DNA from: a phage
Direction: 5' to 3' (one strand)
Assembly (NCBI GenBank): GCA_033664045.1
Contig: GCA_033664045.1_3674.1
Length of the DNA stretch: 64,000 nt
Made by a program: the position numbers and the translations under genes. The notes beneath the pieces were generated by a model. The model saw only the letters and a program-made list of their open reading frames with translations, had not been told where the DNA came from and did no database searches. The first letter of the stretch is position 1, and each line of letters begins with the position of its first letter. Of this stretch, positions 50,871 through 56,013 are shown piece after piece.

Positions 50871-51221
50871 TTACTGCAACAGTTTTTCAATAGCCGCTTC
50901 CATGCTGCTTGCAACAGCCTGAACTCGGATATTCATCTCTTCTTGGTGGATCAGCTCCTTAAGCTCTTTAATGGTAAATTCTTTAGAGAAACCTTCCACC
51001 ATAATCTTGTGTAAGGCTTCTTGCGTATCTACTTGCAAGAACTTTTCCAGTTTGTCGGCAGAGGCTTCTAAATCAGCCCGAATACGAGGGTCATCTGTGC
51101 GATTCAGCATTAGACGTAAGCCATCAAGATTAGTAGAAATAGCGTCTGCATGTTGAGTAACTAACCGTGGCAAAATGAGATCTACAAACTTATTAGCCAA
51201 ATCGATACGTTCTTGTGTCAC
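50871..51221 (-). CDS. hypothetical protein
   Basis: GTG start overlapping upstream stop (GTGA). Confidence 0.5.
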   Translation of the reverse strand: MTQERIDLANKFVDLILPRLVTQHADAISTNLDGLRLMLNRTDDPRIRADLEASADKLEKFLQVDTQEALHKIMVEGFSKEFTIKELKELIHQEEMNIRVQAVASSMEAAIEKLLQ

Positions 51222-51331
51222 TGCTGCACCCCCTCTTCATCCTCATGATGTTTCTTTTCACGCTTGTGTTTTTTCTTAAGCTCAAGCGCAATCTCTTTTT
51301 TGTACGCCTTCTTCAAGGCTTTTTTAGCCAT
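51218..51331 (-). CDS. hypothetical small lysine-rich protein (37 aa)
   Basis: not in track; RBS GGAGGTG; minus-strand promoter TTGACA-N18-TATAAT near 51363-51392. Confidence 0.4.
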   Translation of the reverse strand: MAKKALKKAYKKEIALELKKKHKREKKHHEDEEGVQQ

Positions 51332-51395
51332 TTGGCACCTCCTCTGCTTTCATTTTACGATAATTATACCTATCTAAACAAAGCTTTGTCAACAA

Positions 51396-51869
51396 CTAGT
51401 CTACCTGGACCCAACCGCCTGCTACTTTTTTAAACATTCTTTGGTTATCGCTACCTCGGAACGGTTTCTTGGTTGGTAAGTCTTTTACATACTTACCGTC
51501 AATGATGATATCAGCCAGTTTAAGAACATCACTAGAGATATGGTCAAATGTGAACCCAGTATATACAAGAATAGTTTTCTTGTCACCAAATTTTTCCTTA
51601 ATTTTCTCCATCAGACTAATAATATCTGGCTCATTATAGTATGCTAAGGGTTCTCCACCCAGCAGAGAGATACCGCACACAGACGGGTTATCTAAATCTG
51701 ACAAGATTTTTTGCAAGTCTTCTTCAGTAAACTCTCTCCCCTTATCTTTTGACCAAAATGCCTGATTAAAGCAACCAGGGCAAGCGTGTGGGCACCCAGA
51801 TACCCATAAGGCAGTTCTAATACCTGGCCCTTCGGTGTAAGATATTTCTGTGTATCCGGCAATGTTCAT
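51396..51869 (-). CDS. nrdG: anaerobic ribonucleotide reductase activating protein
   Basis: radical-SAM CX3CX2C motif GCPHACPGCFN; adjacent to nrdD. Confidence 0.85.
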   Translation of the reverse strand: MNIAGYTEISYTEGPGIRTALWVSGCPHACPGCFNQAFWSKDKGREFTEEDLQKILSDLDNPSVCGISLLGGEPLAYYNEPDIISLMEKIKEKFGDKKTILVYTGFTFDHISSDVLKLADIIIDGKYVKDLPTKKPFRGSDNQRMFKKVAGGWVQVD

Positions 51870-51982
51870 AGATACTCCGCATCACATTTAGGGCAATGCC
51901 AAATAAAATCGTCCAGTGCCTTGCACCAACGAAGATTACAATGACAACCGCACTTGCAGATTTTATAGATACCCGATGACAT
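51866..51982 (-). CDS. hypothetical Cys-rich zinc-ribbon micro-protein (38 aa)
   Basis: not in track; RBS AGGAGGT; CKCGCHC...WHCPKC; stop overlaps nrdG start (ATGA). Confidence 0.45.
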   Translation of the reverse strand: MSSGIYKICKCGCHCNLRWCKALDDFIWHCPKCDAEYL

Positions 51983-52034
51983 ACTGCACCTCCTTAGTTA
52001 ATAGCATATTTAAGATATGCATATCTTTCTACGA

Positions 52035-52967
52035 TCATTTACCACAAATCTTCTTGTATACCTCTTCTACCGTGTCAAACACTTCAGGCCTGTAGTAGAA
52101 AAACTCAGTGCTACCGTCAAATTTTACAGGAAAGTTTATTTTATACTTGCTGAAGGCCTTATGCACAGATTTTTCTAAATCTACCATGTTTTGAGTTGAT
52201 CCGCTCCATGTTTTTACTACGTGAAGAGTGTGGACACCTGCGCCAGATTTACGAGCACTGTTAAGCACCTCATTTTTCCTCCTGTGCATTTTAACGCATA
52301 CACCGATTTTCATAAGTGTTGGCACTTCTAAGTCATCAACCATAATGTAGAGTTTACCGTACTCATGAGATAAGAATCCATTTTGTGCGCATTTACAGCA
52401 GCCACGACCACTTTTTAGGTTATTAGGTTTAGCAGACCACTTATACCCACAAATTTTGCACCTACATTGCACTTTTGTGTTATCATTGGCAATTTCCTCT
52501 AATATTTCTATATCTGGGTTGGCTTTGTGGATAATTGCAGCATGCTCCTTATGGGTTAACGCTTGACTTTGCCCACGTCTTAAGTCATAGCACTCTGGGC
52601 AGCCGTTTCTTTGGTATAAGTGGTTTTCAGGGTATTGTTCAAACACACCGTGTTCAGGGCAAACAATTTTTACAGGCGTTCTCATGTTCACATATTTGAC
52701 TAATGAGTAATCGTACTTGTCCCCATGAACAGCCATAGCCTCTTTTATGAACTCTTCAGTGTTCTTTTTCGCTGACCCACCACACCTTGGACAACCATGC
52801 TTCTTGAAAGCATGTGCCACAGGGGTTTGCCAGAACTCACCGTGCTCAGGACAAATTATGCACACAGGTGTCTTGTTGTTTTTATACTCCACTTTGAAGT
52901 AATCATATTTGTCACCATGTATAGTCTGAGCTTTTTCTATAAACTCTTCGGTTGTTAGTCTCCTCAT
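52035..52967 (-). CDS. putative homing endonuclease (T5orf172 / GIY-YIG-like C-terminal domain)
   Basis: three repeated modules HGDKYDY...V.I.CPEHG.F.Q.P..H...GCP.C, then KLYIMVDD...LMKIGVC...RRKNEV. Confidence 0.55.
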   Translation of the reverse strand: MRRLTTEEFIEKAQTIHGDKYDYFKVEYKNNKTPVCIICPEHGEFWQTPVAHAFKKHGCPRCGGSAKKNTEEFIKEAMAVHGDKYDYSLVKYVNMRTPVKIVCPEHGVFEQYPENHLYQRNGCPECYDLRRGQSQALTHKEHAAIIHKANPDIEILEEIANDNTKVQCRCKICGYKWSAKPNNLKSGRGCCKCAQNGFLSHEYGKLYIMVDDLEVPTLMKIGVCVKMHRRKNEVLNSARKSGAGVHTLHVVKTWSGSTQNMVDLEKSVHKAFSKYKINFPVKFDGSTEFFYYRPEVFDTVEEVYKKICGK

Positions 52968-53076: not shown

Positions 53077-54366
53077 TTATTTACTCAACGGACAACAGTC
53101 TACATTCCCAACATGTTTAACACGTTCGATAACCTCTGCTTGTTTACCTGTGTTATACGGTCTACTGTTCGGGCTGGAGAGATAGCCAGACACTCTTCGG
53201 ATCACTGAGATATATTGTTCATCGTGGCATCCACACGCAGGGCAGCAGAACCCTTTAGCTGTTGCACTGAACTCACCAGAGAAACCACACTTAAGACATT
53301 TATCCACAGGTTGGTTAATACCAAAATACATAATGTGTTTATACCCGAAATCGACAAGGGCTTCCAAAGCATCCAAGTTGTTTTTCAGGTTAGGTGTTTC
53401 TATGTATCCAATGTTGCCGCCAGAAGAGATCATAGCAAAACCTTCCTCATACTTCCACTTATCAAAAGGCGAGCTGTTGATCCATACTGGCTGATGGAAA
53501 CTGTTGGTGAGGTATTCATGCTCGTGCTTCAACACTTCTGGGTATTCACGATCCAGACAGGTTGCAGCTTTATAGCATAAACTCTCAGAAGGTGTGCCGT
53601 ACAAGCTAAATGCTAGTCCACTTTCCTTCTTATATCGATCACAAGCATCTTTCATATGCTGAAGGATTCCAAGAGCTAAAGCCTTGTCACCCTCTCTGCC
53701 CAAAATTTGGCAGGTTTCATACACACCAATATACCCAATACTGATGGAAGCGTACCCGTCATAGAAGAGTTTATCGATACTCTCTTCAGGATCCAGGCGA
53801 GCAAGAGCTCCTTCACACCACATGATAGGGTTCTGCCCAGCCTTGGTGCCTTTCAAACGATTAACTCTTACAAGGTGAGCCTCATATGCCAAATCCAAGT
53901 ATTCGTCAAGAACGGCAAAGAAATCAACACCTTCCGTCTTAGCTTTTGCCGCAATCATTGGCAGGTTAAGACTAACAACCCCCAAGTTGAATCTGCCGAG
54001 GTATTTCTCCTCACCTGTTTCCAAGTCATTGTATTTGCTAAGAAAACTCCGGCAACCCATGCTCGTTACTTTGCCATCTGTAGAGCCTGTCACTTTACGA
54101 TTTAGTGGAACAGAAACAAAGTCAGGATAAATCCGCTCTGCAGAGCATTCCAGAGCTAATCGTTTCAAATCATAGTTAGGATCTCCAGGGTTCATGTTGA
54201 CACCTTCTTCTAGGAAGAACAGCACTTTAGGGAACACAGGTGTGATACGTTCTTCACCAAGACCCATTTTGTGGACTTTCAAGTAGTTTTTGGTAATCAT
54301 TCTACCAAATACTGAGGTGTCCAGACCTAAACTTAATGTGATGAATGGAGTCTGCTGTCTCCTCCC
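53077..54366 (-). CDS. nrdD: anaerobic ribonucleoside-triphosphate reductase, 3' exon (glycyl-radical half)
   Basis: QQTPFITLSLGLDTS...GDPNYDL collinear with E. coli NrdD QVPFSSINYGT...GDPNYDL; Zn ribbon CLKCG...CPACGC; glycyl-radical motif RRVSGY. Confidence 0.85.
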   Translation of the reverse strand, partial: GRRQQTPFITLSLGLDTSVFGRMITKNYLKVHKMGLGEERITPVFPKVLFFLEEGVNMNPGDPNYDLKRLALECSAERIYPDFVSVPLNRKVTGSTDGKVTSMGCRSFLSKYNDLETGEEKYLGRFNLGVVSLNLPMIAAKAKTEGVDFFAVLDEYLDLAYEAHLVRVNRLKGTKAGQNPIMWCEGALARLDPEESIDKLFYDGYASISIGYIGVYETCQILGREGDKALALGILQHMKDACDRYKKESGLAFSLYGTPSESLCYKAATCLDREYPEVLKHEHEYLTNSFHQPVWINSSPFDKWKYEEGFAMISSGGNIGYIETPNLKNNLDALEALVDFGYKHIMYFGINQPVDKCLKCGFSGEFSATAKGFCCPACGCHDEQYISVIRRVSGYLSSPNSRPYNTGKQAEVIERVKHVGNVDCCPLSK

Positions 54367-55161
54367 CTGTGTTTCCACAGGGCCAGACTATCTCTTACTC
54401 TACTTCAATAAGATAATAACCCTTTATTGTGAGATGCTTACCTTCGGCATTTCCTTCGATAGCCCTATGAACGTTACCTACGTTCAAATTTAAGGCTTTT
54501 GCACAGGCATAGAGTGAAGGATATTCACCCACCAAGGTTTTCCCTTTGTATGCCTGCACTTTCCTATAGCACTTGCCTGGGCAAAGCCCTGTTCGGAAAG
54601 CATGTCTCTTATTATCTTCCGGCAAAACCCACTCTAGGTTAGACGGATGATCATTCAATGTATTGCCGTCTTTATGATTCACTTCCCAGTTTTCAGGGTC
54701 TTCTGGGACATCTGGCAAACAATACAAGGCAACAATCCTTGAGGTTTGGATTCGAATCTTTTTACCTTTGTGGTTGAAAGAGTACATATAACGGCGTTTA
54801 ACATGCTTGTTACCTTTTCCATAACCTCCCCACAATATTGGGTGTAGCATTCCACGTTTTCCGTATACGTTTCCAACCTCATCAATCACATAGTTTGATT
54901 CTTCACCATTAAGAATGATCTTTTTCATAGAGCCTCTCCATTTCGAAGTTAGTATTTCAACTAACCCCTACACTACTTGGTTCAGAAATGTTTGTCAAGC
55001 ATCTCTGCCTTTCGTTAGTCGTTACAACCGTTCCAACTCCTGTAAGAACTAGTCACGGGATTGGCATAGCTTTCGCCTTAGCGTTCCCCGTTAGCCGGAT
55101 TTACCGACCCCTCTTATGAGGTTAGGAGAGTTTTACAACGGCCAGTTTGTTAACCGTTGAC
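54367..55161 (-). mobile_element. putative group I self-splicing intron interrupting nrdD
   Basis: splits a collinear NrdD reading frame; 5' exon ends in U, proposed intron ends in G; P7-like GACUA ... UAGUC segments; carries HNH ORF. Confidence 0.6.
54395..54928 (-). CDS. HNH homing endonuclease (intron-encoded)
   Basis: HNH core EVNHKDGNTLNDHPSNLEWVLPEDNKRHA. Confidence 0.8.
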   Translation of the reverse strand: MKKIILNGEESNYVIDEVGNVYGKRGMLHPILWGGYGKGNKHVKRRYMYSFNHKGKKIRIQTSRIVALYCLPDVPEDPENWEVNHKDGNTLNDHPSNLEWVLPEDNKRHAFRTGLCPGKCYRKVQAYKGKTLVGEYPSLYACAKALNLNVGNVHRAIEGNAEGKHLTIKGYYLIEVE

Positions 55162-56013
55162 AGAAGTTAACGTATTGATTTGATAAAGCAACGTCTGCAT
55201 GCTGTCAAACACGTCTTTATCTGTCATTTGCATTGCAACAGTCTCAGCATCTGGCAACCAATGTTCCTGGCAAAACTTAAGGTTCTTCTCATAGGTTGCT
55301 TCAGCATATTGTGCCAGATAATGATCAATATGGCTCATAGTCTGACCACCATATTGAGCACTAGCTACCGCACTAGAGATTTGGCTAAGGATTGTTGTTG
55401 CAACCCCTATTGACTTCGGCTTACTGACATGGGCGTTGCCAATGTTGAATCCGTTTTCCAACATATCTGGATAATTTACCAAACAACAGTTTGTTAACGG
55501 ACTGATCAAGTAGTCAAGATCATGCACATGGATGAAGCCTCTATTGTGCTCTTCTGAGACACGGTCTGGCAGGATTTGTGTTGATGCAAGGTGTTTGCTA
55601 AGGATGCCTGCAAGCAGGTCACGATGAGTGTGTACATGATTGGTAGGCTTATTTGCGTTTTCTTTTGTAAATTCATCACAAGTGCGATCCAAGAAGCCAC
55701 TAATATCTGCAAGCAGTTTTCCACCTGCCTCTCTGTTATTATCTCTTGTCTGCCTATACTGGATGTATTCTCTGGCTGCACATTTTAAACCCATATCCAT
55801 AAAAGCGTCTTCAACAAGGGTATGGATATTTTTTACAGAGATCGTGCACTGGTCGGTTGGTAGATTGTTAGCAACAACTTCATTAACCGCGCAGGCGATC
55901 CGGTAAGCTTCTTCTTCAGTATGCCCAGACTCAAGTAAGGCGGACTCTGCCGCCTTGATCACCTTAATTCCGTTATAGACCTCTTCTCTACCGTCCCGTT
56001 TTACAACTTTCAC
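55162..56013 (-). CDS. nrdD: anaerobic ribonucleoside-triphosphate reductase, 5' exon (ATP-cone half)
   Basis: ATP-cone MKVVKRDGREEVYNGIKVIKAAESA; HVHDLDY; ends ...YQINTLTS; track ORF 55150-56013 reads into intron. Confidence 0.8.

What the first reader, a model, noticed from the sequence alone, without database searches (positions are those of the whole stretch)
51866..51982. Unannotated Cys-rich micro-ORF translationally coupled to nrdG
A 38-aa ORF with a strong RBS (AGGAGGT), four Cys pairs (CKCGCHC...WHCPKC) and a stop overlapping the nrdG start codon (ATGA). It is below the ORF-track length cutoff. It may be a small zinc-ribbon accessory of the anaerobic RNR system.
Basis: seen in the sequence. 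Interest (0 to 1): 0.45.

Follow-up and report, generated by a model that had tools for sequence, protein, structure and literature searches.

The report
Small zinc-ribbon gene upstream of nrdG
A real, strongly conserved 38-codon phage gene for a cysteine-rich zinc-ribbon mini-protein sits just ahead of the anaerobic reductase activator gene nrdG, but it is already catalogued in related phages and the evidence points away from a dedicated role in ribonucleotide reduction.

Summary
The ORF exists as described, on the minus strand (51866-51982). It has an AGGAGGT ribosome-binding site 5 nt upstream and an ATGA stop/start overlap with nrdG. It has seven Cys, not four pairs.

It is a genuine gene. 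Thirteen distinct DNA variants keep the frame and all seven Cys, with pN/pS of about 0.05-0.1. In a divergent lineage its core is 88% identical, while NrdG is 55% and PhoH 49%. The window is a Vequintavirus (rV5-like E. coli phage).

The gene is not new. It is annotated in many relatives, is phrog_20137 (E=4.6e-30) and is listed as an uncharacterised viral protein.

A moderate-confidence AlphaFold model of the 54-aa variant superposes on classic zinc ribbons.

The RNR-accessory reading is weak:
- About 2,100 other nrdG-carrying phage records lack the gene, including sister genera where nrdD overlaps nrdG directly.
- 33 Vequintavirus records keep it intact but uncoupled from a mosaic nrdG.
- Podovirus ACG-C91, which has no nrdD or nrdG, carries it as an exact ORF-for-ORF replacement upstream of DNA ligase.

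Most likely it is an autonomous, portable small metal-binding protein whose target is not known. Interest is low to moderate.

The parts
51866..51982 (-). 38-aa Cys7 micro-ORF (phrog_20137), MSSGIYKICKCGCHCNLRWCKALDDFIWHCPKCDAEYL
   Evidence: ORF list and sequence. PHROG match E=4.6e-30 over 1-38/38. Purifying selection and 7 invariant Cys.
51988..51994 (-). Shine-Dalgarno AGGAGGT, 5 nt upstream of the micro-ORF ATG
   Evidence: Sequence. An AGGAGG, AGGAG or GAGGA element is present at the same place in all 13 variants.
51866..51869 (-). ATGA stop/start overlap between the micro-ORF and nrdG
   Evidence: Sequence. ATGA is kept in 10 of 13 variant contexts and is ATAA (uncoupled) in the nomine-type variants.
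51875..51878 (-). GGAG inside micro-ORF codons A35-E36, 5 nt before the nrdG ATG; the probable nrdG Shine-Dalgarno
   Evidence: Sequence. GGAG invariant in 12 of the 13 distinct variants (AGAG in L007-L010). Annotated as the nrdG ribosome-binding site in phage Murica.
51396..51869 (-). nrdG, class III RNR activating radical-SAM enzyme (157 aa), the downstream coupled cistron
   Evidence: TIGR02491 at 149.8 bits over 1-152/154; PF13353 E=9e-43.
52035..52967 (-). 310-aa free-standing homing-endonuclease-like ORF (DUF723 / treble-clef fingers / T5orf172) inserted between nrdD and the micro-ORF; context, variably present
   Evidence: Pfam and PHROG hits. Absent in JES2013 and Murica. A different 386-aa version is present in O157 typing phage 14.
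53047..53066 (-). terminator-like hairpin plus T-run just after the nrdD stop; context
   Evidence: Consensus scan only: 8-bp stem, tail TTTTTGTTTT.
53077..54378 (-). nrdD 3' exon/ORF (glycyl-radical and C-terminal Zn-ribbon part); context
   Evidence: PF13597 positions 155-562/562 and PF01228.

Best explanation
The ORF is an autonomous gene for a very small (36-54 aa) metal-binding protein with a zinc-ribbon fold.

Proposed metal site (inferred): two knuckles, C9/C11 (CxxC in the longer variants) and C30-P-x-C33, most likely hold one Zn(Cys)4 site across a beta-hairpin. Three further invariant Cys (C13, C15, C20) lie on the first strand. They could form a second metal site, possibly shared with another molecule.

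Gene layout (shown): it is the promoter-proximal cistron of a two-gene unit in most Vequintaviruses. Its last codons carry the nrdG Shine-Dalgarno, and its stop overlaps the nrdG start. Ribosomes finishing it are therefore delivered to nrdG, taking over the role that the 3' end of nrdD plays in sister genera.

Proposed function (inferred): the protein is not RNR-specific. It probably acts by binding a conserved partner, most likely a host (E. coli) component or a generic nucleic-acid or protein surface, during the DNA-metabolism phase of infection.

Shown: coding status, conservation, coupling geometry, narrow distribution, portability. Inferred: metal binding, fold details, host-directed target.
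For: - Coding and strongly constrained: pN/pS about 0.05-0.1 and 7 of 7 Cys invariant.
- Its core is 88% identical in lineage L007/L015, where the neighbours have diverged to 55% (NrdG), 49-56% (PhoH) and 33% (ORF116). Synonymous sites are near saturation (pS 0.68-0.79), so this is constraint, not recent transfer.
- Portability: in ACG-C91 it exactly replaces, from ATG to ATGA, an unrelated 38-aa CxxC-x18-CxxC ORF that K1E carries between the DUF3310 gene and DNA ligase. The flanks are near-identical between ACG-C91 and K1E. ACG-C91 has no nrdD or nrdG.
- It is retained intact, with 0 non-synonymous against 2-5 synonymous differences, in the uncoupled nomine-type arrangement found in 33 records.
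- Zinc-ribbon fold: AF2 core pLDDT 70-79. The top Foldseek PDB hits are the Nudix N-terminal ribbon 3cng (36% identity, rmsd 1.3 A), Rpb9 and ZifS 8yoz.
- No RNA structure explains the conservation (z = +1.1).
Against: - No experiment or expression data were found.
- Adjacency to nrdG is kept even in the divergent L007/L015 lineage, including the ATGA overlap. This leaves room for a functional link.
- ACG-C91 is a single transfer event, and its E. coli host still has its own NrdDG, so it does not strictly exclude an RNR-related target.
- The fold evidence is moderate.
- The 'host target' step is pure inference from the conservation pattern.
Confidence: 0.5

Rival explanations
1. Dedicated accessory of the class III RNR. 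The Cys-rich protein binds NrdG (or NrdD) and helps deliver electrons or metal to the radical-SAM [4Fe-4S] activase, as a mini-rubredoxin-like partner. Translational coupling would fix the stoichiometry.
For: - It always lies between nrdD and nrdG on the same strand in about 120 Vequintavirus records and in the divergent L007/L015 lineage.
- ATGA coupling is present in 10 of 13 variant contexts.
- The CxxCG ... W-x-CPxC knuckles resemble rubredoxin-type knuckles (my recollection of that family; not tested beyond Pfam).
Against: - It is absent from about 2,100 phage records with NrdG homologues, and from Certrevirus CB7 and Phapecoctavirus, where nrdD and nrdG overlap directly.
- It is present in nrdDG-free ACG-C91, coupled to DNA ligase.
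- It stays 88-95% identical next to three NrdG types that are only 52-56% identical to each other, with no sign of co-evolution.
- It is uncoupled in 33 records.
- It gives no Pfam or NCBIfam hit (rubredoxin and RNR families included), and NrdG and NrdD are full length.
Confidence: 0.2
2. Mainly a translational-coupling leader. The ORF exists to bring ribosomes to the nrdG start after nrdD and nrdG were separated by a terminator or endonuclease insertion, and the peptide itself has little function.
For: - The nrdG SD (GGAG) lies inside the ORF's last codons, with an ATGA overlap.
- In sister genera nrdD itself is 4-nt-overlapped with nrdG.
- In K1E and ACG-C91, unrelated micro-ORFs occupy the same 'leader' position before the ligase gene.
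- In the nomine type, a different 78-aa ORF is ATGA-coupled to nrdG.
Against: - Amino-acid-level purifying selection covers the whole core, with 7 invariant Cys.
- The ORF is maintained intact, without non-synonymous change, where it is no longer coupled to anything: TAA stop followed by about 150 nt of spacer.
- No stable mRNA structure sequesters the nrdG start (z = +1.1).
Confidence: 0.12
3. Relic fragment: a leftover of a duplicated NrdD C-terminal Zn ribbon, or of a zinc finger from one of the homing endonucleases that invade this intergenic site.
For: - Some GenBank records label it 'putative anaerobic ribonucleoside-triphosphate reductase'.
- The neighbouring 310-aa ORF has several CxxC treble-clef fingers.
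- The site is a hotspot for endonuclease genes.
Against: - hhalign of the family profile against the NrdD C-terminus gives probability 2.9%, and against the 310-aa endonuclease 1.7%, matching only the CPxC knuckle.
- The ORF is present and identical in relatives that lack the endonuclease.
- It has its own SD and is under strong purifying selection.
Confidence: 0.03
4. Non-coding element: a terminator, attenuator or other RNA structure that happens to contain an ORF.
For: - A terminator-like hairpin is called at 51929-51913 (minus).
- The Murica record annotates a 'terminator' inside the ORF and does not annotate the ORF itself.
Against: - The hairpin has 7 pairs, three of them G-T, and a poor T-run.
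- The whole region folds no better than shuffled sequence (z = +1.11; 177 of 200 shuffles fold at least as well).
- The substitution pattern is codon-periodic and synonymous.
Confidence: 0.02

Closest known systems
phrog_20137 and its annotated GenBank members (e.g. JES2013 gp108 YP_008530353.1 'ribonucleotide reductase'; navn_84 QHR74984.1; CM1_00109 QEG04578.1; BFVD/UniProt A0A9E7SGM6 'Uncharacterized protein')
   Same: Same gene. Full-length profile match at E=4.6e-30. It is 92-100% identical in protein, in the same position and with the same coupling.
   Different: Nothing substantive differs. The names 'ribonucleotide reductase' and 'putative anaerobic ribonucleoside-triphosphate reductase' come from adjacency and have no domain support.
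Classic zinc ribbons (Rpb9/TFIIS-type ribbon, Nudix N-terminal ribbon PDB 3cng, eL43) and stand-alone small zinc-finger proteins (T. thermophilus ZifS 8yoz; Haloferax small CPxCG-related zinc finger protein 8q5b)
   Same: Two Cys knuckles flank a beta-hairpin. The model core superposes at 0.9-1.3 A over 33-34 residues. IWHCPKC is identical to an eL43 knuckle.
   Different: - No significant sequence or Foldseek E-value: the best are 0.28 by sequence and 0.34 by fold.
- Three extra invariant Cys on strand 1 give Cys7 rather than Cys4.
- The window's first knuckle is CxC.
- Metal content has not been tested.
38-aa CxxC-x18-CxxC ORF of Vectrevirus K1E (AQY55013.1), located between the DUF3310 'nucleotide kinase' gene and DNA ligase
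   Same: Same size and same knuckle spacing as the CxxC variants of this family. It is also ATGA-coupled to the downstream gene and carries that gene's SD in its last codons. It occupies exactly the slot that this family fills in ACG-C91.
   Different: No detectable homology: hhalign matches only one knuckle, probability 34%. It has four Cys only. It gives sub-threshold hits to generic Zn-ribbon Pfam families, whereas this family hits none.
C-terminal Zn(Cys)4 ribbon of NrdD (class III RNR)
   Same: A Cys-knuckle metal site encoded in the same operon, with a CPxC knuckle present in both.
   Different: Not homologous by profile comparison (probability 2.9%). NrdD in the window keeps its own complete ribbon and glycyl-radical motif.

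Membership tests
phrog_20137 (Vequintavirus 38-aa protein family) | Full-length match to the family profile | tested here: met
   E=4.6e-30, 104 bits, residues 1-38 against profile positions 1-38/38. The ACG-C91 copy also matches, at E=4.9e-23.
Zinc ribbon (structural class) | Two Cys knuckles (CxxC / CPxC type) in the sequence, conserved across members | tested here: met
   C30-P-x-C33 is invariant. The first knuckle is CxxC in the 41- and 54-aa variants and CxC in the window. All Cys are invariant in 13 DNA variants and 11 protein clusters.
Zinc ribbon (structural class) | Knuckles flanking a beta-hairpin; fold superposable on solved zinc ribbons | tested here: inconclusive
   The AF2 model of the 54-aa variant has core pLDDT 70-79 and strands 30-36 and 41-45. 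The 38-aa model reached only pLDDT 54. The top Foldseek PDB hits are all zinc ribbons at rmsd 0.9-1.3 A, but with E = 0.3-1.
Zinc ribbon (structural class) | Binds Zn (or Fe) through four Cys | not testable with these tools
   Needs metal analysis of purified protein.
Class III ribonucleotide reductase system (NrdD/NrdG) component | Sequence homology to an RNR or activase domain | tested here: not met
   No Pfam or NCBIfam hit at E<=1 or E<=10. hhalign against the NrdD C-terminus gives probability 2.9%.
Class III ribonucleotide reductase system (NrdD/NrdG) component | Co-occurrence with nrdD/nrdG across genomes (present where they are, absent where they are not) | tested here: not met
   - 2,237 phage records have an NrdG homologue, but only about 120 have the micro-ORF.
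- CB7 and Phapecoctavirus have nrdD/nrdG without it.
- ACG-C91 has it without nrdD/nrdG.
Class III ribonucleotide reductase system (NrdD/NrdG) component | Physical or functional interaction with NrdG or NrdD | not testable with these tools
   No multimer prediction or experimental data are available. No literature was found.
Rubredoxin | Match to the rubredoxin family model (CxxCG ... CPxCG knuckles about 29 residues apart, aromatic core) | tested here: not met
   No Pfam hit of any kind. The knuckle spacing here is 18 residues (sequence). The resemblance is limited to the knuckle motifs, and the rubredoxin motif itself is recalled from memory.
Lar-like restriction alleviation / other named phage small Zn-ribbon families; known defence proteins | Match to the PHROG, Pfam or PADLOC model | tested here: not met
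   The only PHROG hit is phrog_20137. There are no Pfam hits and no PADLOC hits.

The most novel reading that the evidence does not exclude
The Cys7 mini-protein is a phage-encoded redox or metal cofactor protein: a minimal rubredoxin-like or cluster-sharing partner. It would use its three extra Cys to hand electrons or an Fe/Zn centre to the radical-SAM activase NrdG, or to the host's equivalent. It would be carried on a self-contained 'leader-gene' cassette (own SD, ORF, next gene's SD, ATGA) that can be moved between unrelated phages. That would make it one of the smallest dedicated partners known for a glycyl-radical activating enzyme.
Probability: 0.1. Interest if true: 0.6.

Novelty: already known. 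Interest (0 to 1): 0.25.

Why it matters
As it stands, the result is mainly an annotation clean-up. The ORF is real and should be called. The labels that have propagated for it in databases ('ribonucleotide reductase', 'anaerobic ribonucleoside-triphosphate reductase') have no support and should read 'small zinc-ribbon protein, function unknown'.

Three features would justify a cheap knockout and pull-down experiment in an rV5-like phage:
- It is the most conserved protein in its neighbourhood.
- It has three invariant Cys beyond the four that a zinc ribbon needs.
- It was exchanged exactly, ORF for ORF, between a 137-kb myovirus and a 44-kb podovirus.

The locus is also a clear example of how phages use tiny upstream cistrons as portable translational-coupling modules.

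Tried and rejected
I re-ran it with 4 in-frame upstream codons and got only 10 clusters, all the same family.
- The HMMER scan of 1.84 billion representatives gave 3 true clusters and 2 spurious repeat proteins, P0001 and P0004.
- IMG/VR gave 3 loci and metagenomes 5 loci. GTDB genomes gave 1 spurious locus. There was no new context.
- 5,426 E. coli genomes gave no match. The single 'plasmid' hit is a phage genome.
- Pfam, NCBIfam and PADLOC gave nothing for this ORF.
- A PDB sequence-profile search found nothing significant; the best was 8q5b at E=0.28.
- The first AF2 model (38 aa) had pLDDT 54 and was unusable.
- The BFVD fold search returned only the family itself and assorted uncharacterised phage zinc ribbons.
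- Homology to the K1E micro-ORF, the NrdD C-terminal ribbon and the neighbouring endonuclease was rejected.
- An RNA element or terminator was rejected.
- A resemblance of the Cys pattern to bacterial metallothionein SmtA came from memory only and has no Pfam support. I did not pursue it.
- Literature searches found no expression or functional data.
- A linker-fusion trick to model a complex with NrdG was not attempted.

Full report
**1. What is there.**
The window is a Vequintavirus (rV5-like E. coli myovirus). The 1.8-kb region around the finding is 98% identical to phages such as navn, I29 and CM1. The ORF lies on the minus strand at 51982->51866. It encodes MSSGIYKICKCGCHCNLRWCKALDDFIWHCPKCDAEYL, 38 aa.
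- AGGAGGT (51994-51988) lies 5 nt before the ATG.
- The TGA stop overlaps the ATG of nrdG (ATGA, 51869-51866).
- nrdG (51396-51869) is a full-length activase: TIGR02491 at 149.8 bits over 1-152/154.
- The protein has seven Cys (9, 11, 13, 15, 20, 30, 33), not four pairs.
- Inside codons A35-E36 there is a GGAG, 5 nt before the nrdG ATG. Phage Murica annotates it as the nrdG ribosome-binding site.

**2. Is it more than chance?**
ORF length alone means nothing: 108 ORFs of at least 25 aa occur in 8 kb. Conservation settles the question. I read 20 loci holding 13 distinct DNA versions of the core.
- All keep the frame, an SD and all seven Cys.
- Differences are overwhelmingly synonymous. Window vs L007 has 10 synonymous and 3 non-synonymous changes (pS 0.68, pN 0.045). 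Window vs L015 has 11 and 3. Window vs ACG-C91 has 9 and 5.
- In the divergent lineage L007/L015 (contigs of 133-136 kb), NrdG is 55-56% identical to the window's, PhoH 49-56% and ORF116 33%. The micro-ORF core is 88% identical. It is the most constrained protein in the neighbourhood.
- The RNA of the region folds no better than shuffles (z = +1.11). A 'terminator-like' hairpin inside the ORF is weak. The constraint is therefore on the protein.

**3. It is already catalogued.**
- The ORF is an annotated CDS in many relatives: navn_84, JES2013 gp108, CM1_00109, nomine_167 and others.
- It matches phrog_20137 over its whole length, E=4.6e-30.
- It appears in BFVD as the entry A0A9E7SGM6, 'Uncharacterized protein'.
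- The names 'ribonucleotide reductase' and 'putative anaerobic ribonucleoside-triphosphate reductase' have no domain basis. Pfam and NCBIfam give no hit. The family profile does not match the NrdD C-terminal ribbon (probability 2.9%).

**4. Distribution.**
The family is tiny.
- The scan of 1.84 billion cluster representatives found 3 true clusters.
- The 5.8-billion-sequence database gave 10 clusters.
- IMG/VR gave 3 loci, metagenomes 5, and GTDB genomes no true hit.
- 5,426 E. coli genomes gave no match.
- tblastn against 50,697 phage records finds it in about 120 Vequintavirus records plus one outlier.
- By contrast, 2,237 phage records have an NrdG homologue.
- In Certrevirus CB7 (same subfamily) and in Phapecoctavirus, nrdD overlaps nrdG by 4 nt with nothing in between.

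**5. Three arrangements.**
- (a) *Window type.* Micro-ORF ATGA-coupled to nrdG. 86 phage records carry the window-type NrdG that goes with this arrangement; I read the junction itself in about a dozen loci, plus L007/L015, whose micro-ORF has a K/E-rich N-terminal extension and is 54 aa long.
- (b) *Nomine type.* 33 records. The micro-ORF ends in TAA. About 150 nt of spacer follow, then a 78-aa ORF (phrog_3249). That ORF is itself ATGA-coupled to a mosaic nrdG whose overall identity to the window's is 52%, although its C-terminal residues are identical to the window's. Among these uncoupled copies there are 0 non-synonymous against 2-5 synonymous differences.
- (c) *Podovirus vB_EcoP_ACG-C91* (Vectrevirus, 43.7 kb). 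A 36-aa copy, 77% identical, lies between the DUF3310 'nucleotide kinase' gene and an ATP-dependent DNA ligase, and is ATGA-coupled to the ligase. ACG-C91 has no nrdD or nrdG, either by annotation or by tblastn.

Alignment with K1E adds detail to arrangement (c). The flanks are near-identical up to the start codon and again from the ATGA. Between them, K1E has an unrelated 38-aa CxxC-x18-CxxC ORF, and phage vB_EcoP_B has a 57-aa ORF without Cys. This is an exact ORF-for-ORF swap at microhomologies (TATG.. / TATGAAYAT). hhalign finds no homology between the K1E ORF and this family.

Rare damaged copies also exist: a deletion fusion (P0005) and a C-terminal frameshift in phage Alma (P0007).

**6. 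Fold.**
- The 38-aa model was poor, pLDDT 54.
- The 54-aa variant gave core pLDDT 70-79 with a beta-hairpin (30-36 / 41-45) between the two knuckles.
- Its best PDB matches are all zinc ribbons: the Nudix N-terminal ribbon 3cng (36% identity, 1.3 A), Rpb9, ZifS 8yoz, eL43 and Elf1. They superpose at about 1 A over 33-34 residues, but E-values are 0.3-1, as expected for so short a domain.
- The PDB sequence-profile search gave only a sub-significant hit to a Haloferax small CPxCG zinc-finger protein (E=0.28). It also showed an identical IWHCPKC knuckle in eL43.

I conclude that this is a zinc-ribbon-like mini-protein with three additional invariant Cys on the first strand. Metal identity and stoichiometry are untested.

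**7. Interpretation.**
The claim of an RNR accessory rests on adjacency within a collinear genus. Three things weigh against it:
- the distribution (section 4);
- the uncoupled but still constrained copies (5b);
- the transfer into an RNR-free phage, where it precedes DNA ligase (5c).

Nothing is missing from NrdG or NrdD that the peptide would need to supply. The peptide stays 88-95% identical beside three NrdG types that are only 52-56% identical to the window's. That pattern fits a partner that does not vary between these phages, for example a host component. This last step is inference.

The cistron clearly also has an architectural role. It carries the next gene's SD and overlaps its start. 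In sister genera nrdD does the same for nrdG. In the nomine type the 78-aa ORF does it, and in K1E the unrelated micro-ORF does it for the ligase gene. I give about 0.5 to 'autonomous, portable small metal-binding protein, not RNR-specific'. I give about 0.2 to a true NrdG/NrdD accessory and about 0.1 to a mere coupling leader. The relic and RNA readings are marginal.

**8. Verdict.**
This is a real gene that is already known as an uncharacterised family. The zinc-ribbon reading is supported at moderate confidence, and the RNR-accessory reading is not supported. Interest is low to moderate (0.25). What remains open is the function of an unusually constrained Cys7 mini-protein, and a knockout plus pull-down would settle that cheaply.

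Noticed in passing
window 54365-54652 (-), with ORFs 55150-56013, 54395-54928 and 53077-54378 (-): nrdD is split into two ORFs by a 177-aa HNH/NUMOD endonuclease gene. A sub-threshold group I intron match (RF00028, 27.7 bits against a gathering score of 50, E=5e-4) overlaps the 3' part of the insert. In L007 nrdD is split twice.
   Followed up: partly
window 52035-52967 (-): A 310-aa free-standing endonuclease-like ORF (DUF723 / treble-clef fingers / T5orf172; phrog_681) lies between nrdD and the micro-ORF. It is absent in JES2013 and Murica. O157 typing phage 14 has a 386-aa relative (48% identity) in its place. This intergenic site is a hotspot for homing-endonuclease genes.
   Followed up: partly
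L011 2769-3475 (phage nomine) and 32 other phage records: Mosaic nrdG. Its overall identity to the window's is 52%, although its C-terminal residues are identical. It arrived together with a 78-aa ORF (phrog_3249, mislabelled 'putative minor capsid protein') that is ATGA-coupled to it. P0005 is a deletion fusion of micro-ORF residues 1-20 with the C-terminus of this 78-aa ORF.
   Followed up: partly
L022 699-815 (phage K1E); L023 699-872 (phage vB_EcoP_B): The slot between the DUF3310 gene and DNA ligase in Vectreviruses holds interchangeable small ORFs. These are a 38-aa CxxC-x18-CxxC ribbon, a 57-aa ORF without Cys (phrog_15259), or the Vequintavirus Cys7 ORF. The K1E, vB_EcoP_B and ACG-C91 ORFs all overlap the ligase start by 4 nt.
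   Followed up: partly
window 51363-51392 (-): A perfect sigma-70 consensus (TTGACA, 18 nt, TATAAT; 12 of 12) lies immediately after the nrdG stop. It presumably drives the next genes: the 37-aa K/E-rich ORF at 51218-51331 (phrog_7670) and ORF116, which overlap by 4 nt.
   Followed up: no
GenBank MG065644-MG065690 ('Campylobacter phage' records); PLSDB CP057073.1: Eighteen records labelled as Campylobacter jejuni phages are 97-98% identical to E. coli Vequintaviruses over this region. A 137.5-kb E. coli 'plasmid' is also a Vequintavirus genome. These are probably mislabelled or contaminated entries.
   Followed up: no
L001 1597-2070 (navn_85) and equivalents in nomo, magaca, nimi: nrdG itself is annotated as 'putative minor capsid protein' in several GenBank records, an error that has propagated between records.
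   Followed up: no
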